Source: a virus
Lineage: Duplodnaviria; Caudoviricetes
Length of the DNA stretch: 28,226 nt
IMG/VR virus record: IMGVR_UViG_3300046804_005150
Coordinates: 1 to 28,226 of that record
Direction: 5' to 3' (one strand)
Position 1 is the first letter of the stretch. Each line of letters begins with the position of its first letter. A program made the position numbers and the translations under genes. Below, in pieces: positions 21,446-27,674 of the stretch. The notes under the pieces are model-generated. The model saw nothing but the letters and a program-made list of their open reading frames with translations, did no database searches and was not told the origin of the DNA.

Positions 21446-21640
21446 TTAATATTTTGTGGCAAGATGCCAATATCCGCAGTAACTACATTTGTACGGTGTT
21501 CTCTCTGAACGATATTCAATCAGTATTCTTTTGGCATCACGAATAGCATCGCTGCGAGTTTCATAATTTGTTTTAGTCTCGCAGGATGCTTTGTGATGAT
21601 TGTTACTTGAGGACTTGATATAGGATTTTCTTGTAGTCAT
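21446..21640 (-). CDS. small zinc-finger-like protein
   Basis: C..K..Y...A...A and YKCSYCGYWHL motifs; start uncertain. Confidence 0.68.
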   Translation of the reverse strand: MTTRKSYIKSSSNNHHKASCETKTNYETRSDAIRDAKRILIEYRSERTPYKCSYCGYWHLATKY

Positions 21641-22718
21641 CTGCACCAATGAACTTTGCATCAAGCATCTTAAACACAATTGATGCTCTATCTGTGCTGC
21701 TATATGTCGCCAAGATCTCAGCCGCTGCTTGCTTACGAGGAATATTGATACAACCAAATGAAAAAAGAACTAATTCATTCATTATTTTTTTAACTTCCAC
21801 CATAGCATCGCAAATCTTGGATGCATGTCCAGTTGCCATTGTAGCAATCTCAAAGTCAAACTTTTCAGTCAGATACTTAAAGAATTCTGGATATCCCGTT
21901 GGCTCATGTGATAAAGTATGACGATCCATGAACCAATCAATATAAACATCAACCACCTTGTCGATACTTGATATTTCAGACTTTGCACGATGTAGAAACA
22001 GATAGTGCGCAGACTTTACTTTACGAATAGACTGACCTTCGTTGTAATATACACATAGTCCTTCCTGATCGCGCAATGCTTCCACGCTCTGCTTCATTTC
22101 TTCCACAGAGTTATAGTTGTATGTCTTGGGACGACGTAGTTGAAGCTGTGAAGCAACAGTGCTTACCCCATCCTGTGTCATAAGCGTATAGTCATTATGA
22201 AAGATTACACCAATCAAAACCATATCTGGTTCATCTCCATAATCCAACACAATGCGATTGGTAGGAGACAGCCACTCAAAGATGTAAGAAACTGGAGTTG
22301 TATCAAGTGCTTCGATAAATTCAAAGAACTTATTGTATTTTTCACGCAATACATCAATCTCGTGACCATTTTCCTGATTTCGTACATCAACGGTTCCGCG
22401 AGTACGAATAACGGTATGACCTTTGTAACGAGAAATTATAAGAGTTGATCCATCAAGCTTTTCCGTCAGCGTTGATCCAGTTAAATCCGATGGGGCGGGA
22501 TCTATTGTGGGAGCTTCATCCCAATTGAAAAACTTCTTGAATGACAAGGATATAGGATTGCCTTCATTGTCCCATACAGAAGAACGAAAAATCAGATTGT
22601 CCTTGTTCCATGTAGCACCGATATGAATCGGTTGCACAAGAAAGCAGTCATTTTCACCGATTCGGTGTGGATGAACCATGAATGACTCTCTATCAATAGA
22701 CTGTATATCAATCTTCAT
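21603..22718 (-). CDS. RNA ligase, T4 Rnl1-like
   Basis: KFFN, motif I EKLDGS, TRG, FEWLSPTNRIV, EGLCV and KVKS..Y; start ATG 22718. Confidence 0.88.
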   Translation of the reverse strand: MKIDIQSIDRESFMVHPHRIGENDCFLVQPIHIGATWNKDNLIFRSSVWDNEGNPISLSFKKFFNWDEAPTIDPAPSDLTGSTLTEKLDGSTLIISRYKGHTVIRTRGTVDVRNQENGHEIDVLREKYNKFFEFIEALDTTPVSYIFEWLSPTNRIVLDYGDEPDMVLIGVIFHNDYTLMTQDGVSTVASQLQLRRPKTYNYNSVEEMKQSVEALRDQEGLCVYYNEGQSIRKVKSAHYLFLHRAKSEISSIDKVVDVYIDWFMDRHTLSHEPTGYPEFFKYLTEKFDFEIATMATGHASKICDAMVEVKKIMNELVLFSFGCINIPRKQAAAEILATYSSTDRASIVFKMLDAKFIGADDYKKILYQVLK

Positions 22719-22727
22719 AAGACCATA

Positions 22728-22756
22728 ACTATGGATAAGTGGGGGTGTAATGTCAA
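22728..22756 (-). promoter_or_regulatory. sigma70-like promoter TTGACA-N17-CATAGT
   Basis: The -10 element ends 9 nt before the ligase ATG. Confidence 0.72.
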
Positions 22757-22760
22757 CCAA

Positions 22761-22792
22761 TAAAAATCCCACGGTTTTTATGCCGTGGGATT
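22761..22792 (-). terminator. rho-independent terminator
   Basis: AATCCCACGG/CCGTGGGATT stem followed by a T-run on the minus strand. Confidence 0.8.
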
Positions 22793-22818
22793 GATAATAT
22801 AACCTTTATAAGCCAATA

Positions 22819-23034
22819 TTACTTGGCAAGGATTCTGCGAAGAATCGCAACAGCACGTCCATCAAGACGAACCTTGTTCATCTGCTTTGTAATCGGATTG
22901 ATACCCGTTACATTGAGATGCATTCTCAAATCCTTGACGCCTTCAACGGGGCGTGTGAAAGAAAGAGAATACTTTCTGTTCTTGACGAATGTGTTTACCT
23001 TGCGACCATTTTGGGTTTTTGTTGTTTTTGTCAT
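22819..23034 (-). CDS. small highly basic protein
   Basis: 71 aa and K/R-rich; has its own promoter, A-rich leader and terminator. Confidence 0.75.
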   Translation of the reverse strand: MTKTTKTQNGRKVNTFVKNRKYSLSFTRPVEGVKDLRMHLNVTGINPITKQMNKVRLDGRAVAILRRILAK

Positions 23035-23077
23035 ATGTTTAGTTTTTGTTTTTGTTATGTTGTTTATAACGAAATAC

Positions 23078-23106
23078 AGTATGTATTTTTACCCGCAGAT
23101 TGTCAA
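23078..23106 (-). promoter_or_regulatory. sigma70-like promoter TTGACA-N17-CATACT
   Basis: Overlaps the 3' end of uvsE; lies upstream of the small basic protein gene. Confidence 0.68.
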
Positions 23107-24039
23107 TAACTTTTCTCGGGAAATCTTATTTATAGCGACTTCTTTCATCTTGAATTCGAAGTCAAGATGCAGTGGATCTTTGTGATTGGCATAGATATCA
23201 GGAAGCATTGTGGGGAAATCTGCGTGAGCGCGAGGATTCTTGCCAGCAAGAGATTCGCTGAAGTGAAACAGAGGAACGACATCTTTCGGCCAAGTTTGCA
23301 ACGCCATTTTAAATGCAAACTCCTCGTTGTTGTAATTACTGTTGCATTTATGATGCAAGTTGTCAAAAGTGATTGGAATTCCCATACGCTTGTACATTTT
23401 GTCGTATAAATGCCATACGGGCCAGCTTCTCGGCTTGTCCTCGTTCTCGTAAACAAGTCGGTCCATCACAGATTTTGATAGTCGCTTGTGTACTTTTTCC
23501 AATCTATCAATCACCTCGACAAAATTTCCATCGTTGTAACAATTCATATGAATATTGATGGGAGCCTCATACGTTTGAGGTAGGTCCAACATATCCATAA
23601 TCATAGCATGTTGTTCCAAGTCCCTGATAGAATTCTCTACTACCTTTGGATTTGGACTGGCGGGAACAACAAACTGGTCAGGATGCATACTGCAACGAAT
23701 GTTGTATTGCTTGATTGTGGCAGCAGCAGCATTAAACTCGGCGTATATCTCGTTGAAATTATAGAAATCATCTACACCAAAATCAAGGTCGGGGTGTGTC
23801 ATCAATGGAAACACATTGCTACCGATACGATAATTCCAACCATTCTTACCACATTCTTTGAGAATGGCATGTATAGTCTTGATATTGTTCAATGAACGAT
23901 CAGCGAGAACTTTCATTGCCTCCTTCTTACCCAACTTCTTATATTGGGCATATGTCATTACATTGAACTTGATCTTCTGTTCTTGCAGTCCTGTATGAAT
24001 GCAGCACAGAGAAGGAGTAATATTAGATGGTAAAATCAT
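23089..24039 (-). CDS. uvsE: UV-damage endonuclease UvsE/UVDE
   Basis: YRIGS..FP, SMHPDQF, INIH, ENED, FDNLHH, FHFSES, AHAD and EFKMKE motifs. Start is probably 24039, downstream of the -10 element. Confidence 0.93.
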   Translation of the reverse strand: MILPSNITPSLCCIHTGLQEQKIKFNVMTYAQYKKLGKKEAMKVLADRSLNNIKTIHAILKECGKNGWNYRIGSNVFPLMTHPDLDFGVDDFYNFNEIYAEFNAAAATIKQYNIRCSMHPDQFVVPASPNPKVVENSIRDLEQHAMIMDMLDLPQTYEAPINIHMNCYNDGNFVEVIDRLEKVHKRLSKSVMDRLVYENEDKPRSWPVWHLYDKMYKRMGIPITFDNLHHKCNSNYNNEEFAFKMALQTWPKDVVPLFHFSESLAGKNPRAHADFPTMLPDIYANHKDPLHLDFEFKMKEVAINKISREKLLTICG

Positions 24040-24046
24040 GAATACC

Positions 24047-24074
24047 ATCATACATAAAAACTCTGGATTGTCAA
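24047..24074 (-). promoter_or_regulatory. sigma70-like promoter TTGACA-N16-TATGAT
   Basis: The -10 element ends 7 nt before ATG 24039. Confidence 0.68.
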
Positions 24075-24083
24075 CAAGACAAT

Positions 24084-24115
24084 AAAAAAGGACACCATTT
24101 ACGGTGTCCTTTTTT
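24084..24115. terminator. bidirectional-type rho-independent terminator
   Basis: AAAAAAGGACACC-loop-GGTGTCCTTTTTT, downstream of the beta-barrel gene. Confidence 0.88.
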
Positions 24116-24134
24116 GAATAGAACTAATTGGCTA

Positions 24135-24851
24135 TTAGAACTTTACAGAAAGACCAGCGGAGATACTGTTAGTTGTATTTCCAGCTGTTAGAATGCCATC
24201 ACGAAGTTGAGAAAAATCAACATTCAATGTAGCATACTTTGTGTAATATCCCAAACCAATTCCAACAATGGCATACTGCTTTGCATTTTTGAATTGGGCA
24301 ATCGTGTCAGCGCCGAGGTCATTGAAACCATATCCAAGGGCTGGAACCAACTTCAGATGTTGGAATCCGAATGGAAGACGCAGATTTGCTTCTGTGTTGT
24401 TTGTGCGGTTCTTCACATCTGCACGATAACGAGCATCCCAAGTGGCCTGTGTGCCGAAGAACTTACCGTTCAACAAAGCAAATCCCTCTGTGTTGCTTGC
24501 AAGATTTGAAACACTCTTGCTGAAGTTCTTGTATGTGGCACCCAAGGTCAAATTCGCCAAAGGCGATGTGAACTTATATCCAGCGGACAAGTCTGTACGC
24601 TTGAATAGTCCAGCACTTGCTGTGTATTTGCCCGTGGTTGTATCCTTAACTGTGTTGAAGGTGTTTGCACCCAAAACAAAGTTATAGACTTCTGTTGACA
24701 CGCCTGCGACCACAACATCTTCAAAAGCAACCAGTCCCTTGTCGAAGAACTTGGTATGATATGTTGCGTTAGCATTCAATCCGAATGTGTCAGCATTTAG
24801 TGTAACGGCGGCAAACAATGCCATGATAGTTACTATGATTTTCTTTGTCAT
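24135..24851 (-). CDS. outer-membrane beta-barrel protein (porin-like) with signal peptide
   Basis: MTKKIIVTIMALFAAVTLNA signal peptide, alternating amphipathic strands and a C-terminal AGLSVKF (terminal Phe beta-signal). Confidence 0.82.
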   Translation of the reverse strand: MTKKIIVTIMALFAAVTLNADTFGLNANATYHTKFFDKGLVAFEDVVVAGVSTEVYNFVLGANTFNTVKDTTTGKYTASAGLFKRTDLSAGYKFTSPLANLTLGATYKNFSKSVSNLASNTEGFALLNGKFFGTQATWDARYRADVKNRTNNTEANLRLPFGFQHLKLVPALGYGFNDLGADTIAQFKNAKQYAIVGIGLGYYTKYATLNVDFSQLRDGILTAGNTTNSISAGLSVKF

Positions 24852-24905
24852 ATATATTTTATTTAGTTTATTGTTATATACTTCACGTTTTGTAAAGTAT
24901 GAATA

Positions 24906-24933
24906 ACTATATTCTTGCAAACGGTTTCGTCAA
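24906..24933 (-). promoter_or_regulatory. sigma70-like promoter TTGACG-N16-TATAGT
   Basis: Lies between the tmRNA 3' end and the barrel gene. Confidence 0.65.
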
Positions 24934-24962
24934 GAAAATTTTTGAACGTATATATTAAAAAA

Positions 24963-25356
24963 TGGTGGACGTGCGGGGAGTTGAACCCCGGTGCTGTATA
25001 ATATAACTACAACCATATACAAGCTTATCTCTTATAATCCGACAATGTTTGGTAGAGCACCACATTGAAGTTGAAGTTTAGTATTTGATTTGCACTACCA
25101 TCTTCTATCTTATGCAAACGGACAGATGATGAACGCTCTATTCATATTATCTGTGTCATATGATAGAACGGGCAACCTTATTAGGCTGCGGCGAGAAGCT
25201 CGGAATCGCTGCTCTTTTTGAATGAGACAGAGATTACGGTCTTCTTTGCAAGATTTCTCTTAGCATTTATTTTTTCCAACGGGTATTATACAGAGACATT
25301 AGACTCTGTGCTTGCGGACTGTATCTAAACTATATAGTAGAATCCAGAACACGCCC
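24963..25356 (-). ncRNA. ssrA: tmRNA, one-piece, 394 nt
   Basis: The 5' end reads GGGCGTGTTCTGGATTCTAC and the 3' end CGGGGTTCAACTCCCCG-CACGTCC-ACCA. The 7-bp acceptor stem has G3.U70, an A discriminator and encoded CCA. The internal tag frame 25264-25181 follows ATAAAT and ends LAAA-TAA-TAA. Confidence 0.95.
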
Positions 25357-25365
25357 ATAAAGAGA

Positions 25366-25538
25366 AAGCGTGTAGGGACCGATGTTTGGGCATCGGCACC
25401 GGAGTCATTTTCGGATGACTCGTCCTATCTTTTTGACTTCGGCTTTTATACAAGAGAAACTTGATGCCTACTAAGTTGTCGTGAAAGAATGACCGCGAGT
25501 TTCCTAAACAGCGGCCCTTTTAACTACCCTACACACTT
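25366..25538 (-). ncRNA. unassigned structured RNA (~173 nt, multi-branch)
   Basis: A 12-bp closing stem AAGTGTGTAGGG/CCCTACACGCTT encloses three clear hairpins and one irregular arm. G.U pairs favour the minus strand; no ORF of 60 aa or more is listed here. Confidence 0.6.
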
Positions 25539-25671
25539 CTAAAATTGGTATCAAAGAACAGCAATAATAATTATCAGATAAAAGGGTCATGTCAATGTTT
25601 TTTATTTTCTGAAAGTTTTTCTCAAAACATATTATACCTTTTTTTTAATATATTTAGATTATTATACGGTT

Positions 25672-25839
25672 ATGGAAGTAGACAAAATGAGTCACACAAA
25701 ATCAAAGATATTGGACGATCTTGAATACTGGCATAAAAAGTTGGAGCGGTTTGAAAAGACAAACAACCAAGAAGGAATCAAGGTCGCAAAATTGATGATT
25801 GACAAATACCTCGACTCATATAATGATGCTATTATATGA
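25672..25839 (+). CDS. small hypothetical protein, 55 aa (MEVDKMSHTKSKILDDLEYWHKKLERFEKTNNQEGIKVAKLMIDKYLDSYNDAII)
   Basis: Translated by hand; below the track cutoff. Its TGA overlaps the next ATG (ATGA 25836-25839). Confidence 0.72.
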   Translation: MEVDKMSHTKSKILDDLEYWHKKLERFEKTNNQEGIKVAKLMIDKYLDSYNDAII

Positions 25840-26189
25840 AACTCGCGATCATAGGAAGCAGAGACTTCAATGATTATGACAAGGTGGTACATTACGTGGA
25901 TTTCCACTTCTGTATCGACTCCAATCGTGTTGACGAGATTGTCAGCGGCGGAGCCAAAGGTGCAGATGCTCTTGGTAAGAAATTTGCCAATGAATTCAAA
26001 CTAAAATACACAGAATTTCCCGCCGATTGGAATAAACACGGCAAATCCGCTGGATATATTCGTAACGAGCAGATCATCAAGCATTCGGATAAAGTAATTG
26101 CTTTTTGGGATGGAAAATCAAAAGGCACAATGCATTCGATTAATCTTGCCAGAAAACACAAAAAGGATACTATCATTATTTATGTATAA
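25836..26189 (+). CDS. SLOG-superfamily protein (YspA/DUF2493-like)
   Basis: IIGSRDF, VSGGAKGAD, ADW..HGKSAGYIRN and AFWDGKSKGT motifs. Confidence 0.88.
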   Translation: MKLAIIGSRDFNDYDKVVHYVDFHFCIDSNRVDEIVSGGAKGADALGKKFANEFKLKYTEFPADWNKHGKSAGYIRNEQIIKHSDKVIAFWDGKSKGTMHSINLARKHKKDTIIIYV

Positions 26190-26541
26190 ACTATTTTTAG
26201 ACGATATCAGAGATCCAAAAGTTGTGAATTGGGTAAAATTACCAGAAGGACCGTGGGTAATTGTTCGTAACTACAATCAATTCGTTGATTATATCACAAA
26301 AAACGGATTGCCAGAATTTATTACGTTTGATCACGATCTTGGAGAAGAACATTATATTGTTGGGAAGCCGAAGTATGATGAATATAAAGAAAAAACAGGC
26401 TATGATTGTGCCAAGTGGCTGATTGAATATTGTATGGACAATAACCAGTCATTTCCAGATTATATTGTTCACAGTATGAATCCCATCGGTGCAATGAATA
26501 TTCGTAGCATTGCTGAAAACTTCAGAAATACAATCAAGTGA
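26182..26541 (+). CDS. cyclic-phosphate-processing receiver-domain protein
   Basis: LFLDDIR, FDHDLG, TGYD and HSMNPIG motifs; start ATG 26182. Confidence 0.82.
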   Translation: MYKLFLDDIRDPKVVNWVKLPEGPWVIVRNYNQFVDYITKNGLPEFITFDHDLGEEHYIVGKPKYDEYKEKTGYDCAKWLIEYCMDNNQSFPDYIVHSMNPIGAMNIRSIAENFRNTIK

Positions 26542-27188
26542 AACGCATTTCATTAAATAGCAAGGACCAAAAGATCTGGTTTGTATCCGATCTTCATTTG
26601 GGTCACGACAAGCCATTCATACTTGGTCCTCGCAATTATAAAAATATCAACGAGGCATATCAACATACTCATGAAATGATTCAAGAGCATGTTGGTCCCA
26701 ATGACATTTTGTTCAATCTCGGTGATATGGTGATTGGGGCAAGAGACAATTCACTTTCATACGCACAACGAATTGTTCACTACCCATGCAAGCATCAATA
26801 CTTCATTTGGGGAAACCACAATGCTGGTATTCAACAGATGTATGACGATTGTCGCAGTCAACTTGGATTGCTTGCCGATGACATTGAAATATATCCACTC
26901 AACTATCCCAATAGTCCATTTACATTCCTTGGACATTATGCCGAAATTTGGATTGATGACACAAGTATTGTGCTTACACATTATCCAATCGCTTCGTGGA
27001 ATAGAATAAGCAAGGGTGCTTATCATCTGCATGGGCATTGCCATCGCAATCTCAAAGAAGACTTAACGCTCAATAGAATTGATGTTGGATGGGAATGGAA
27101 ATGCAGACCAGTCGAATGGAGTGAAATTGTAAGAGAATTAAGTCCAAGAAAAATAGTTTCACCAGATCATCATGGAAAGGATGAATAA
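26538..27188 (+). CDS. calcineurin-like metallophosphoesterase
   Basis: SDLHLGH, LGD, GNHN, THYP and HGHCH motifs; GTGA overlap start. Confidence 0.9.
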   Translation: MKRISLNSKDQKIWFVSDLHLGHDKPFILGPRNYKNINEAYQHTHEMIQEHVGPNDILFNLGDMVIGARDNSLSYAQRIVHYPCKHQYFIWGNHNAGIQQMYDDCRSQLGLLADDIEIYPLNYPNSPFTFLGHYAEIWIDDTSIVLTHYPIASWNRISKGAYHLHGHCHRNLKEDLTLNRIDVGWEWKCRPVEWSEIVRELSPRKIVSPDHHGKDE

Positions 27189-27191
27189 CTT

Positions 27192-27674
27192 ATGAAAACT
27201 CTAATACACAAAGACGGAAATCTACTAACCGCAACAGATGTTCAGGTTATTGGCCATCAAGCAAACTGTCAAAACACATTCGGAGCAGGTATTGCCAAAA
27301 GCATCAAAGATATGTATCCCAAGGCATATCACGCAGATACTATGGCATACAAAGATGGCAAGGCCGTTCTTGGAAACTTTAGTTTTTGCCATTTAGATAA
27401 TGGACCGTTCAAGAAAATATTTAATTTGTATGGACAGAACCTTTATGGCAAGGGAAAGCGTCAAACAAACTACGATGCTCTTTATAACGCCCTCGAAGGG
27501 ATGAAGAATCATCTCGTTGATAATGATGAAGACCTTCCACTTCCAGATGTTGGATTTCCATATCTTATGGGATGTGGGCTTGGTGGAGGAGATTGGCGAA
27601 TTGTGGAAAGACTAATTGAAGTTGCTTTCCACAATTACGATGGTCATGTGTTTATCTATAGATTTAAATCTTAA
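27192..27674 (+). CDS. macrodomain protein (ADP-ribose processing; DarG/Poa1p-like)
   Basis: GNLL, HQANC..FGAGIA, NLYGQ and FP..GCGLGGGDW motifs. Confidence 0.9.
   Translation: MKTLIHKDGNLLTATDVQVIGHQANCQNTFGAGIAKSIKDMYPKAYHADTMAYKDGKAVLGNFSFCHLDNGPFKKIFNLYGQNLYGKGKRQTNYDALYNALEGMKNHLVDNDEDLPLPDVGFPYLMGCGLGGGDWRIVERLIEVAFHNYDGHVFIYRFKS

What the first reader, a model, noticed from the sequence alone, without database searches (positions are those of the whole stretch)
25366..25538. Unassigned ~173-nt multi-branch RNA sitting 9 nt upstream of the tmRNA
Seen on the minus strand: a closing stem AAGTGTGTAGGG (25538-25527) pairs with CCCTACACGCTT (25377-25366). It encloses GGCCGC/GCGGTC (25516-25491, with an inner GTTT/AAAC), GAGTCAT-CCGAAA-ATGACTC (25421-25402) and CCGATG-CCCAAA-CATCGG (25396-25379). 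A longer irregular arm (TCTTT..GAC..GGC..CAAG/CTTG..GCC..GTC..AAAGA) spans about 25488-25428. Two helices have G.U pairs on minus that would be A-C mismatches on plus, so the RNA is probably co-oriented with tmRNA. A TTGACA at 25595-25590 could drive both. I see no T-loop/CCA end, hammerhead core, or SRP or RNase P signature. Inference: a discrete ncRNA co-transcribed with tmRNA and released when the tmRNA 5' end is processed. It could be a 6S-sized polymerase decoy, a protein sponge, a ribozyme or a new class.
Basis: partly seen in the sequence, partly recalled or inferred. Interest (0 to 1): 0.85.

Follow-up and report, generated by a model that had tools for sequence, protein, structure and literature searches.

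The report
Uncatalogued folded RNA heading phage tmRNA
A group of large uncultured phages keeps a tightly conserved, five-armed folded RNA gene of no catalogued family between a promoter and its own ribosome-rescue RNA (tmRNA); it is likely cut free as a stable RNA that probably binds a host protein during infection, but its job is untested.

Summary
In detail: every helix lies at the stated coordinates, and the 173-nt element folds better than 200 of 200 shuffles. It is a real RNA family. I found 30 distinct close copies (type A), 3 copies lacking the last hairpin (type B) and 1 distant copy (type C). Each sits between a conserved promoter-like and boxA-like leader and the phage tmRNA. Compensatory changes support the fold: 24 of 27 two-sided differences between independent sequence pairs keep pairing. 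One related phage lacks the element cleanly, and a type B copy sits on a type A-like tmRNA, so this is a swappable slot not needed to make tmRNA. There is no Rfam, cultured-phage, plasmid or bacterial match. 6S, Y RNA, Csr-sponge, retron, T4 RNA C/D and known ribozyme features were not met. RNA-library contigs give only weak evidence of expression. Best reading: a stable trans-acting RNA freed by tmRNA 5' processing, probably a protein-binding decoy (about 40%). The scan noted this family before on another genome (e1-5856223).

The parts
25590..25595 (-). -35-like hexamer TTGACA
   Evidence: TTGAC present in 33 of 33 element loci and in the element-less L071
25567..25575 (-). conserved -10-region word GATAVTTAT, 14 nt after the -35 hexamer
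   Evidence: 33 of 33 loci (two spacings read by eye); the exact -10 register is unresolved
25551..25559 (-). boxA-like word GTTCTTTGA at the likely transcript start (boxA label recalled)
   Evidence: 33 of 33 loci, 7 nt after the -10-region word; also heads tRNA and tmRNA genes of other phages
25366..25538 (-). the structured RNA, type A (five-way junction P1-P5)
   Evidence: model R1 179 bits (the window is in the model's training set)
25527..25538 (-). P1 5' strand
   Evidence: with 25366-25377: 100% of cells paired, 5 of 12 pairs with two-sided change
25517..25526 (-). J1/2 single-stranded A/U-rich linker
25491..25516 (-). P2 hairpin, variable loop
   Evidence: a stem of at least 5 bp in 30 of 30 type A copies, with the register chosen per sequence from two options
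25428..25488 (-). P3 long arm: P3a 25488-25484/25432-25428, P3b 25480-25478/25437-25435, bulge 25477-25473, P3c 25468-25466/25443-25441, variable apex
25469..25472 (-). AGUA strand of a sarcin-ricin-type (bulged-G, loop E) motif; partner GAA at 25440-25438 (motif label recalled)
   Evidence: invariant in 33 of 33 type A+B rows and present in type C, which was found without using the motif
25424..25427 (-). invariant UAGG junction strand (J3/4), followed by two freely varying bases
25402..25421 (-). P4 hairpin, 7 bp, loop CYRAAW (25414-25409)
   Evidence: 4 of 7 pairs with two-sided change; loop C..AA invariant across types A, B and C
25378..25397 (-). P5 hairpin, loop CCCNAA; type A only
   Evidence: 4 of 6 counted pairs with two-sided change; absent in type B
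25366..25377 (-). P1 3' strand
25357..25365 (-). U-rich spacer; likely RNase P leader of the tmRNA
   Evidence: 7-15 nt, last base a pyrimidine in 33 of 33 and ending AT in 26 of 33
24963..25356 (-). one-piece tmRNA with encoded CCA
   Evidence: Rfam RF00023 88.5 bits; ARAGORN

Best explanation
The element is a phage-specific structured RNA gene with a conserved sarcin-ricin-type core; it is likely transcribed as the 5' part of one precursor with the tmRNA, likely freed by the host's RNase P cut at the tmRNA 5' end, and probably acts on its own as a stable protein-binding decoy that helps keep translation running during infection. Shown: the sequence family, the covarying fold, the fixed place between leader and tmRNA, single copy per genome, loss in one phage and exchange in another, no predicted pairing with the tmRNA. 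Inferred: transcription from the TTGACA promoter, RNase P release and trimming of the U-rich tail back to P1, and a compact tertiary core in which the motif arm, UAGG and the P4 loop pack together (the GG of UAGG could pair with the CY of loop 4 as a two-pair pseudoknot). Least certain: the bound partner, proposed to be a host RNA-surveillance or anti-phage ribonuclease protein.
For: Fold: on an unfitted MAFFT alignment of 30 distinct copies 95.9% of helix cells pair, 18 of 40 pairs show two-sided change, and the covariation score beats 500 of 500 shuffles. In 15 disjoint pairs of present-day sequences 24 of 27 two-sided differences keep pairing; the partner-permutation null has mean 1.4 and maximum 9. 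Core: 31 positions are invariant over types A and B, including the unpaired AGUA/GAA, UAGG and loop-4 bases. Type C was reached through a neighbouring protein and its tmRNA; it carries the same words (1 of 200000 shuffles of that slot match) and scores 24 bits, E 1.5e-6, over its full length with a model built without it. Independence from the tmRNA: L071 has promoter, boxA-like word and tmRNA with no element, and its tmRNA is sister to element-bearing L402 (100/99). Type B L089 sits on a tmRNA nested among type A ones (100/100), while the element tree separates types A and B. In predicted precursor folds 15 of 18 loci show no element-tmRNA pairs and the longest complementary run is at shuffle level. 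Retention: 32 of 33 uvdE-anchored loci covering the slot hold an element. Context: RlaP, cREC_REC and an RNA ligase (Pfam) plus phosphoesterase and macro-domain genes flank the locus, and the complete relative G001 has 38 tRNA genes. RNA libraries: run X4 holds 110 nt of the L380-type element in a contig separate from its tmRNA contig; run X3 has a contig running from a tmRNA into the L427-type spacer and P1 3' strand.
Against: No binding partner, phenotype or host is known; the decoy role rests on context and on excluding alternatives. RNA evidence is weak. It consists of assembled contigs at depth 2.5-6.3 with no strand, no ends and no DNA or silent-stretch control. The X4 contig continues with 53 unrelated letters. 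None of the 4 runs laid on the window covered the window's own element, and 3 of 4 runs laid on L420 had tmRNA pieces only. The proposed pseudoknot has no two-sided change and its spacing is 8, not 9, in type C. 13 of 32 one-sided differences break a pair, pair 131-146 is A.C in 10 of 30 rows, and the count of pair types does not exceed shuffles (37 against 39). Copies found were selected for the core words, so part of the invariance is built in. The promoter's -10 register is not canonical.
Confidence: 0.4

Rival explanations
1. A cis-acting leader: the fold works only on the nascent precursor (antitermination together with the boxA-like word, protection of the 5' end, or tuning of tmRNA yield) and is then discarded.
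For: Always first in the transcript and always directly before the tmRNA in all 34 distinct copies seen; no second copy in G001-G004.
Against: L071 has the same leader and an intact tmRNA with no element. The unit is only about 600 nt and the next gene has its own promoter-like site. No conserved pairing with the tmRNA. A closed P1 with defined ends suits a free RNA.
Confidence: 0.17
2. A ribozyme of a new class (self-cleaving or acting on another RNA) whose active site is the conserved motif arm, UAGG and loop 4.
For: Invariant unpaired bases cluster at a junction while the periphery varies. Related phages appear to use small ribozymes beside stable RNAs: a pistol ribozyme in L006 and HDV-like layouts behind CCA-less tmRNAs in L072 and L575.
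Against: No ribozyme family above chance in Rfam (best Hovlinc E 4.3, on the opposite strand). The spacer to the tmRNA varies from 7 to 15 nt, so no fixed cut could make the tmRNA 5' end. The tmRNA gene occurs without the element.
Confidence: 0.15
3. An RNA that binds the ribosome or a translation factor directly, as a helper of the phage tmRNA or a mimic of an rRNA surface.
For: Strict linkage to the tmRNA; the sarcin-ricin-type motif is an rRNA feature (eukaryotic 5S loop E forms it, PMC8450098 passages); the phage record lacks SmpB.
Against: No GAGA-type cap on the motif arm, whose apex varies from about 11 to 30 nt; no 5S or rRNA model hit; dispensable in L071.
Confidence: 0.12
4. A 6S-like decoy of sigma70 RNA polymerase.
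For: Size, and a closing stem joining the ends; no sigma factor was seen among 321 ORFs of G001, so the phage may depend on the host enzyme.
Against: Covarying hairpins fill the would-be bubble; the distal arm varies in length and sequence; no 6S model at E<=10.
Confidence: 0.05
5. A selfish or neutral insert (miniature mobile element or retron-like RNA) that comes and goes at this slot.
For: Clean absence in L071 and exchange of types.
Against: Single copy; the terminal stem changes sequence while keeping pairing; no reverse transcriptase in 5 of 5 records, one of them complete; conserved non-canonical RNA motif.
Confidence: 0.06

Closest known systems
Phage T4 RNA C and RNA D (rnaC, rnaD; species 1 and 2 RNAs)
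   Same: Small stable phage RNAs of unknown function (PMC9697503 passage) encoded in a stable-RNA cluster next to tRNA genes; similar size (139 and 119 nt).
   Different: No match to model R1 (best 5.5 bits over rnaC). RNA C ends in a canonical tRNA T arm, which this family lacks. Ours precedes a tmRNA and carries a sarcin-ricin-type arm.
Bacterial Y RNAs (YrlA) with Ro60
   Same: Ends joined by a stem; multi-arm; found in phages (PMC4201824 passages).
   Different: No canonical T loop or tRNA-like domain; no TROVE/Ro60 in 5 of 5 records; no YrlA model hit.
6S RNA (RF00013)
   Same: Length and a closing stem.
   Different: Five-way (type A) or four-way (type B) junction instead of a rod with a central bubble; no model hit.
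Lysine riboswitch and T-box leaders (RNAs bearing loop E; features recalled)
   Same: A multi-way junction of similar size with an AGUA/GAA motif in one arm.
   Different: The motif is in the second enclosed arm; no kink-turn, kissing loop, specifier or T-box word seen; no downstream coding gene or terminator switch; no Rfam hit.
GOLLD and ROOL RNAs
   Same: Structured bacterial or phage RNAs of unknown function (PMC12286853, search listing only); association with tRNA clusters is recalled.
   Different: Three to five times longer (sizes recalled); no model hit.
Automated viral candidate structured RNAs of Fremin et al. 2023 (PMC10690425)
   Same: Mined from IMG/VR, the collection that holds many of these copies.
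   Different: Their candidates are at most 151 nt (passage), shorter than this RNA; a fragment could be among them, and their alignment and model files could not be read.

Membership tests
Any Rfam 15 family | match at the family's gathering score | tested here: not met
   window, seven homologous loci at gathering score, eight loci at E<=10: only the tmRNA scores; type C was not scanned against Rfam
6S RNA | irregular rod with an open central bubble (recalled) | tested here: not met
   P2, P4 and P5 covary inside the would-be bubble
6S RNA | binds sigma70 holoenzyme and templates product RNA | not testable with these tools
   needs an in vitro assay
Y RNA / YrlA | tRNA-like domain with a canonical T arm | tested here: not met
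   loop 4 is CYRAAW on a 7-bp stem and loop 5 is CCCNAA; ARAGORN finds only the tmRNA
Y RNA / YrlA | encoded next to Ro60 (TROVE) | tested here: not met
   0 of 5 records, one of them 100% complete; a host-encoded Ro60 could not be tested
T4 RNA C / RNA D | sequence or structure homology; terminal T arm | tested here: not met
T4 RNA C / RNA D | stable RNA cut from a stable-RNA operon | tested here: inconclusive
   the layout fits; RNA contigs are weak
Known self-cleaving ribozymes (hammerhead, HDV-like/theta, twister, pistol, hatchet, hairpin) | family core sequence and topology | tested here: not met
   no hit above chance; no such core seen in alignments A2 and A7 (cores recalled). Rfam also missed the theta-like layout in L072, so its sensitivity to minimal HDV-like forms is limited
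Known self-cleaving ribozymes | site-specific self-cleavage | not testable with these tools
   needs an assay
CsrB/RsmZ or operator-type sponge | several conserved GGA loops, or loops repeated at phage translation starts | tested here: not met
   the window's GGA in P2 is replaced in many copies; in G001, loop-4 hairpins 12 against 13-22 in shuffles and loop-5 hairpins 1 against 1-8
Retron msr-msd | adjacent reverse transcriptase | tested here: not met
   0 of 5 records
RNase P RNA / SRP RNA | conserved P4 pseudoknot regions, or the helix 8 motif (recalled) | tested here: not met
   the window's RNase P-like AGGAA word in P2 is not conserved; no model hit
Lysine riboswitch / T-box | ligand core plus an expression platform before a coding gene (recalled) | tested here: not met
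   the downstream gene is the tmRNA; no terminator-like site on the minus strand in 24700-26000; no model hit
Sarcin-ricin (bulged-G) motif | AGUA opposite GAA between two helices (recalled) | tested here: met
   invariant in 33 of 33 A+B rows and in type C, with flanking G-C pairs that covary; 3D geometry not testable here
Sarcin-ricin loop mimic | GAGA tetraloop one pair above the motif (recalled) | tested here: not met
   three pairs and a variable apex follow the motif

The most novel reading that the evidence does not exclude
A new class of phage RNA with its own tertiary fold (sarcin-ricin-type arm docked with a tiny UAGG-loop-4 pseudoknot, repeated in P5 of type A) that jumbo phages mass-produce from the tmRNA promoter as an RNA counter-defence or as a new ribozyme, with types A, B, C and the empty slot being exchangeable alleles matched to different host defences.
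Probability: 0.3. Interest if true: 0.85.

Novelty: categorically new. Interest (0 to 1): 0.6.

Why it matters
Compact phage RNAs with a conserved three-dimensional core and no family are rare leads for new RNA chemistry or RNA-based counter-defence, and T4's own small stable RNAs are still of unknown function (PMC9697503 passage). This one comes with natural controls: three structural types, an empty allele, a defined invariant core of about 30 bases and defined ends. Self-cleavage, probing, structure and pull-down tests can therefore be done at once on synthetic RNA. Its limits are a narrow range (one uncultured phage group, host unknown) and no function yet.

Tried and rejected
Similarity searches: no meaningful blastn match among 50,697 phage records for the window or type C or among plasmids. 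A core-pattern scan of GTDB gave 13 loci, none supported by either model. Model R2 found nothing in 5 bacterial genomes, but only 150 candidates per genome were scored, so this shows little. Of 49 viral records searched with R2 only G007, which is in the model, matched. 187 leftover pattern loci gave nothing convincing with R1 or R2 (L421 and L237 are AT-rich chance hits). The viral scan covered only 39 of 64 parts of the collection. An R2 hit in cultured Flavobacterium phage MW353175.1 (24.3 bits) is a hairpin antisense to a gene start, lacks the motif and folds at chance level: rejected. Pairing of loop 5 with the tmRNA 5' end: loop 5 is unchanged where the tmRNA starts GUGG (L426, L427, L380): rejected. 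Pairing of J1/2 with the P3 bulge: broken in L038 and L341 by inspection. Antisense targets in G001: only short chance matches (best 15 nt, E 0.038). Coding: no plausible ORF spans the element on minus; one plus-strand frame is open across much of it in the window, and its conservation was not tested. Host: nearest cultured capsids are 55-59% identical (Microcystis and Flavobacterium phages), so the host is unresolved. RNA runs: all 24 hold at most 11% of the words; 7 were laid; lack of cover on the element in most of them is no evidence. X2 and X4 contigs both stop at 25317, but no DNA run was laid. The uvdE protein tree is a quick tree with one mistranslated long branch (L113) and was not relied on. 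Counting of changes along tree branches was not done.

Full report
Setting. The window is a 28-kb piece of a large T4-like phage (PHROG hits; virus record). A one-piece tmRNA lies at 24963-25356 on the minus strand. A relative, record G001, is 297 kb and rated complete. It has T4-type capsid, portal and sheath genes and 38 tRNA genes. The nearest cultured capsids are 55-59% identical, so the host is unknown.

Observation. The plus strand folds equally well, so the strand is given by other evidence, below. Rfam has no match at gathering score and only chance hits at E<=10.

Family. Scans of IMG/VR by a tmRNA word, by element words and by neighbouring proteins, and one metagenome scan, gave 30 distinct type A sequences including the window. 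Their pairwise identity is 62-99%, median 72%. Three further copies (L089, L449, L352) share P2, the long arm and P4 but lack P5. A model trained on type A alone scores them 46.6, 42.9 and 23.2 bits (type B). A more distant phage, reached through a phosphoesterase gene and then its tmRNA, has a 198-nt element with a long P1 in the same slot (type C, L575:1892-2089). The type A model missed it in a whole-record search but matches it end to end with filters off (24 bits, E 1.5e-6). Its three core words occur in 1 of 200000 shuffles of the slot. Because several scans selected for core words, I made a motif-independent census: of 63 uvdE-anchored loci, 33 cover the slot, and 28 hold type A, 4 type B and 1 nothing. 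Each of records G001-G004 has one copy. No supported copy was found in GTDB pattern hits, cultured phages or plasmids.

Fold. On the unfitted MAFFT alignment, 95.9% of 1199 helix cells pair, against 87.6% in shuffles and 32-43% when partners are slid. 18 of 40 pairs show a two-sided change, and the covariation score exceeds 500 of 500 shuffles; the number of pair types does not exceed shuffles. The structure was drawn from these same sequences, which favours it in the slide control. To allow for kinship I compared 15 disjoint pairs of present-day sequences: 24 of 27 two-sided differences keep pairing (null mean 1.4, maximum 9 in 5000 permutations), while 19 of 32 one-sided differences keep it. 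P2 slips by one base between subgroups and forms at least 5 bp in 30 of 30. G.U cells outnumber A.C cells 47 to 23, a modest vote for the minus strand.

Core. Thirty-one positions are invariant over types A and B, and the main ones persist in type C: AGUA opposite GAA in the long arm, UAGG after it, two free bases, and a 6-7 bp hairpin whose loop keeps C..AA. AGUA/GAA between helices is the sarcin-ricin (bulged-G, eukaryotic loop E) motif. I recall that consensus from memory; the passages I read in PMC8450098 describe the motif but did not print it. The apex of the arm, P1 length, the P2 loop and P5 all vary, which points to a compact tertiary core with a free periphery. The GG of UAGG lies 9 bases (8 in type C) before the CY of loop 4, a geometry compatible with a two-pair H-type pseudoknot, and CGGU-P5-CCC repeats the layout in type A. 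This is inference only: those bases do not covary, and the spacing was part of the patterns.

Transcription unit. All 33 type A and B loci carry TTGAC, then GATAVTTAT 14 bases after the hexamer, then GTTCTTTGA 7 bases later, then 11-17 bases to P1. Type C has the same words. The last word resembles the boxA antitermination signal (recalled; one search gave a listing only). A U-rich spacer of 7-15 bases, ending in a pyrimidine in 33 of 33 loci and in AT in 26 of 33, separates P1 from the tmRNA. This fits an RNase P leader: RNase P makes tRNA 5' ends (PMC10879173 passage), and its role on tmRNA and its -1/-2 preference are recalled. In predicted precursor folds the element keeps to itself: no pairs to the tmRNA in 15 of 18 loci, one paired base in two and 11 in L089.

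A swappable slot. L071 has the same promoter words and boxA-like word followed 14 bases later by an intact tmRNA, and its tmRNA is sister to that of element-bearing L402 (100/99). Type B L089 has a tmRNA nested among type A loci (100/100), although the element tree separates A from B (29 and 26 rows, loci with incomplete tmRNA left out). The element can therefore be lost or exchanged without the tmRNA, which argues against an obligatory processing role. Yet 32 of 33 loci keep one.

Expression. Twenty-four RNA-labelled runs hold 4-11% of the words; seven were laid, all as assembled contigs. Run X4 has a contig with 110 bases of the element whose 7 of 7 listed substitutions match L380, as do both indels to within a homopolymer shift. 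It is separate from the tmRNA contig and continues with 53 unrelated letters. Run X3 has a 322-base contig that leaves the tmRNA and goes on for 147 letters, the first 30 of which equal the L427 tmRNA start, spacer and P1 3' end. The other five runs show tmRNA pieces only. Contigs give no strand, ends or level, and no DNA or silent-stretch control was available. This is weak support for transcription, not proof of a discrete RNA.

Mechanism. I commit to a stable trans-acting RNA, likely made with the tmRNA, freed by RNase P and trimmed to P1 (about 70% for this biogenesis), whose conserved core probably binds a host protein as a decoy (about 40% overall). The reasons for the decoy role are indirect. 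The RNA heads what is likely an abundantly transcribed stable-RNA unit, and it lies among RNA-repair genes (RlaP, cREC_REC, RNA ligase, phosphoesterase, macro domain). It has alleles that are lost or swapped, and it has no antisense or operator targets in the phage. Rivals are a cis-acting leader, a new ribozyme, a ribosome-binding helper, a 6S-like decoy and a neutral insert, as scored above.

Comparison with what is known. It works, by place and likely biogenesis, like T4 RNA C and D, which are small RNAs of unknown function (PMC9697503, passages). It is not homologous to them and lacks the T arm of RNA C. Y RNA fails on the T arm and on Ro60 (PMC4201824, passages), retron on reverse transcriptase, and 6S, Csr sponge, RNase P, SRP, riboswitches and known ribozymes on structure and models. 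Phage tmRNAs themselves are known (PMC7162821, passages). Nine literature searches showed no description of this RNA; most subscription journals are outside that library. The automated IMG/VR screen of PMC10690425 (passages read; 3 of 6 held supplementary files searched without a hit; the alignment and model archives could not be read) lists candidates up to 151 nt and may hold a fragment. PMC10085705 (passages) had nothing bearing on it. The types B and C, the empty allele, the motif core and the RNA contigs come from my own calls.

Verdict. A real, new structured RNA family with a well-supported fold and a defined core; function open; interest 0.6.

Noticed in passing
L072:156-214 (+) and L575:1445-1502 (-): Directly behind two phage tmRNAs that lack a full encoded CCA there is a 58-59 nt element with an HDV-like (theta-ribozyme-like) layout; the two copies are homologous with compensating changes in their first two helices. 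The theta-ribozyme paper PMC10879173 has no occurrence of 'tmRNA' in its main text. Rfam does not detect the L072 copy. Cleavage is untested.
   Followed up: partly
window 24963-25356 and homologues: The tmRNA acceptor stem and D-loop region vary in cassette fashion with compensation among close relatives (at least six acceptor-stem variants, one starting GU), independently of the upstream element; possibly escape from host nucleases.
   Followed up: partly
window 21603-27674: RNA-repair-type genes surround the tmRNA: RNA ligase, SLOG/YspA, cREC_REC, phosphoesterase, macro domain; RlaP is nearby in G001.
   Followed up: partly
window 24135-24851 (-): A porin-like gene (TorF/Gcw_chp look-alike) with its own promoter-like site follows the tmRNA; close relatives carry very different alleles (21-76% identity).
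   Followed up: partly
L019:1530-1725 (-): Another boxA-led spacer of about 190 nt before the tmRNA of a different phage clade; weak fold (z -1.24), no match to R1 or R2.
   Followed up: partly
L006:2768-2819 (+): Pistol ribozyme above gathering score in a phage tRNA/tmRNA cluster.
   Followed up: no
L020:944-1183 (-): Group I intron overlapping or interrupting a phage tmRNA.
   Followed up: no
L089:3557-3570 (+): This type B copy has an extra 5' hairpin with a CUGAA loop resembling loop 4.
   Followed up: no
G001 (L452-L466): The hexamer GATAGG is depleted genome-wide (30 against 69-77 in shuffles); it may be a stop-codon or restriction-site effect. The record also encodes heme oxygenase with bilin reductase, peptide deformylase, an Acb1-like phosphoesterase and a CHASE2 cyclase.
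   Followed up: no
window 25567-25595 (-): The promoter has an invariant 14-base gap between TTGACA and GATAVTTAT in all relatives, which does not give a canonical sigma70 -10 at 17 bases in every copy.
   Followed up: no
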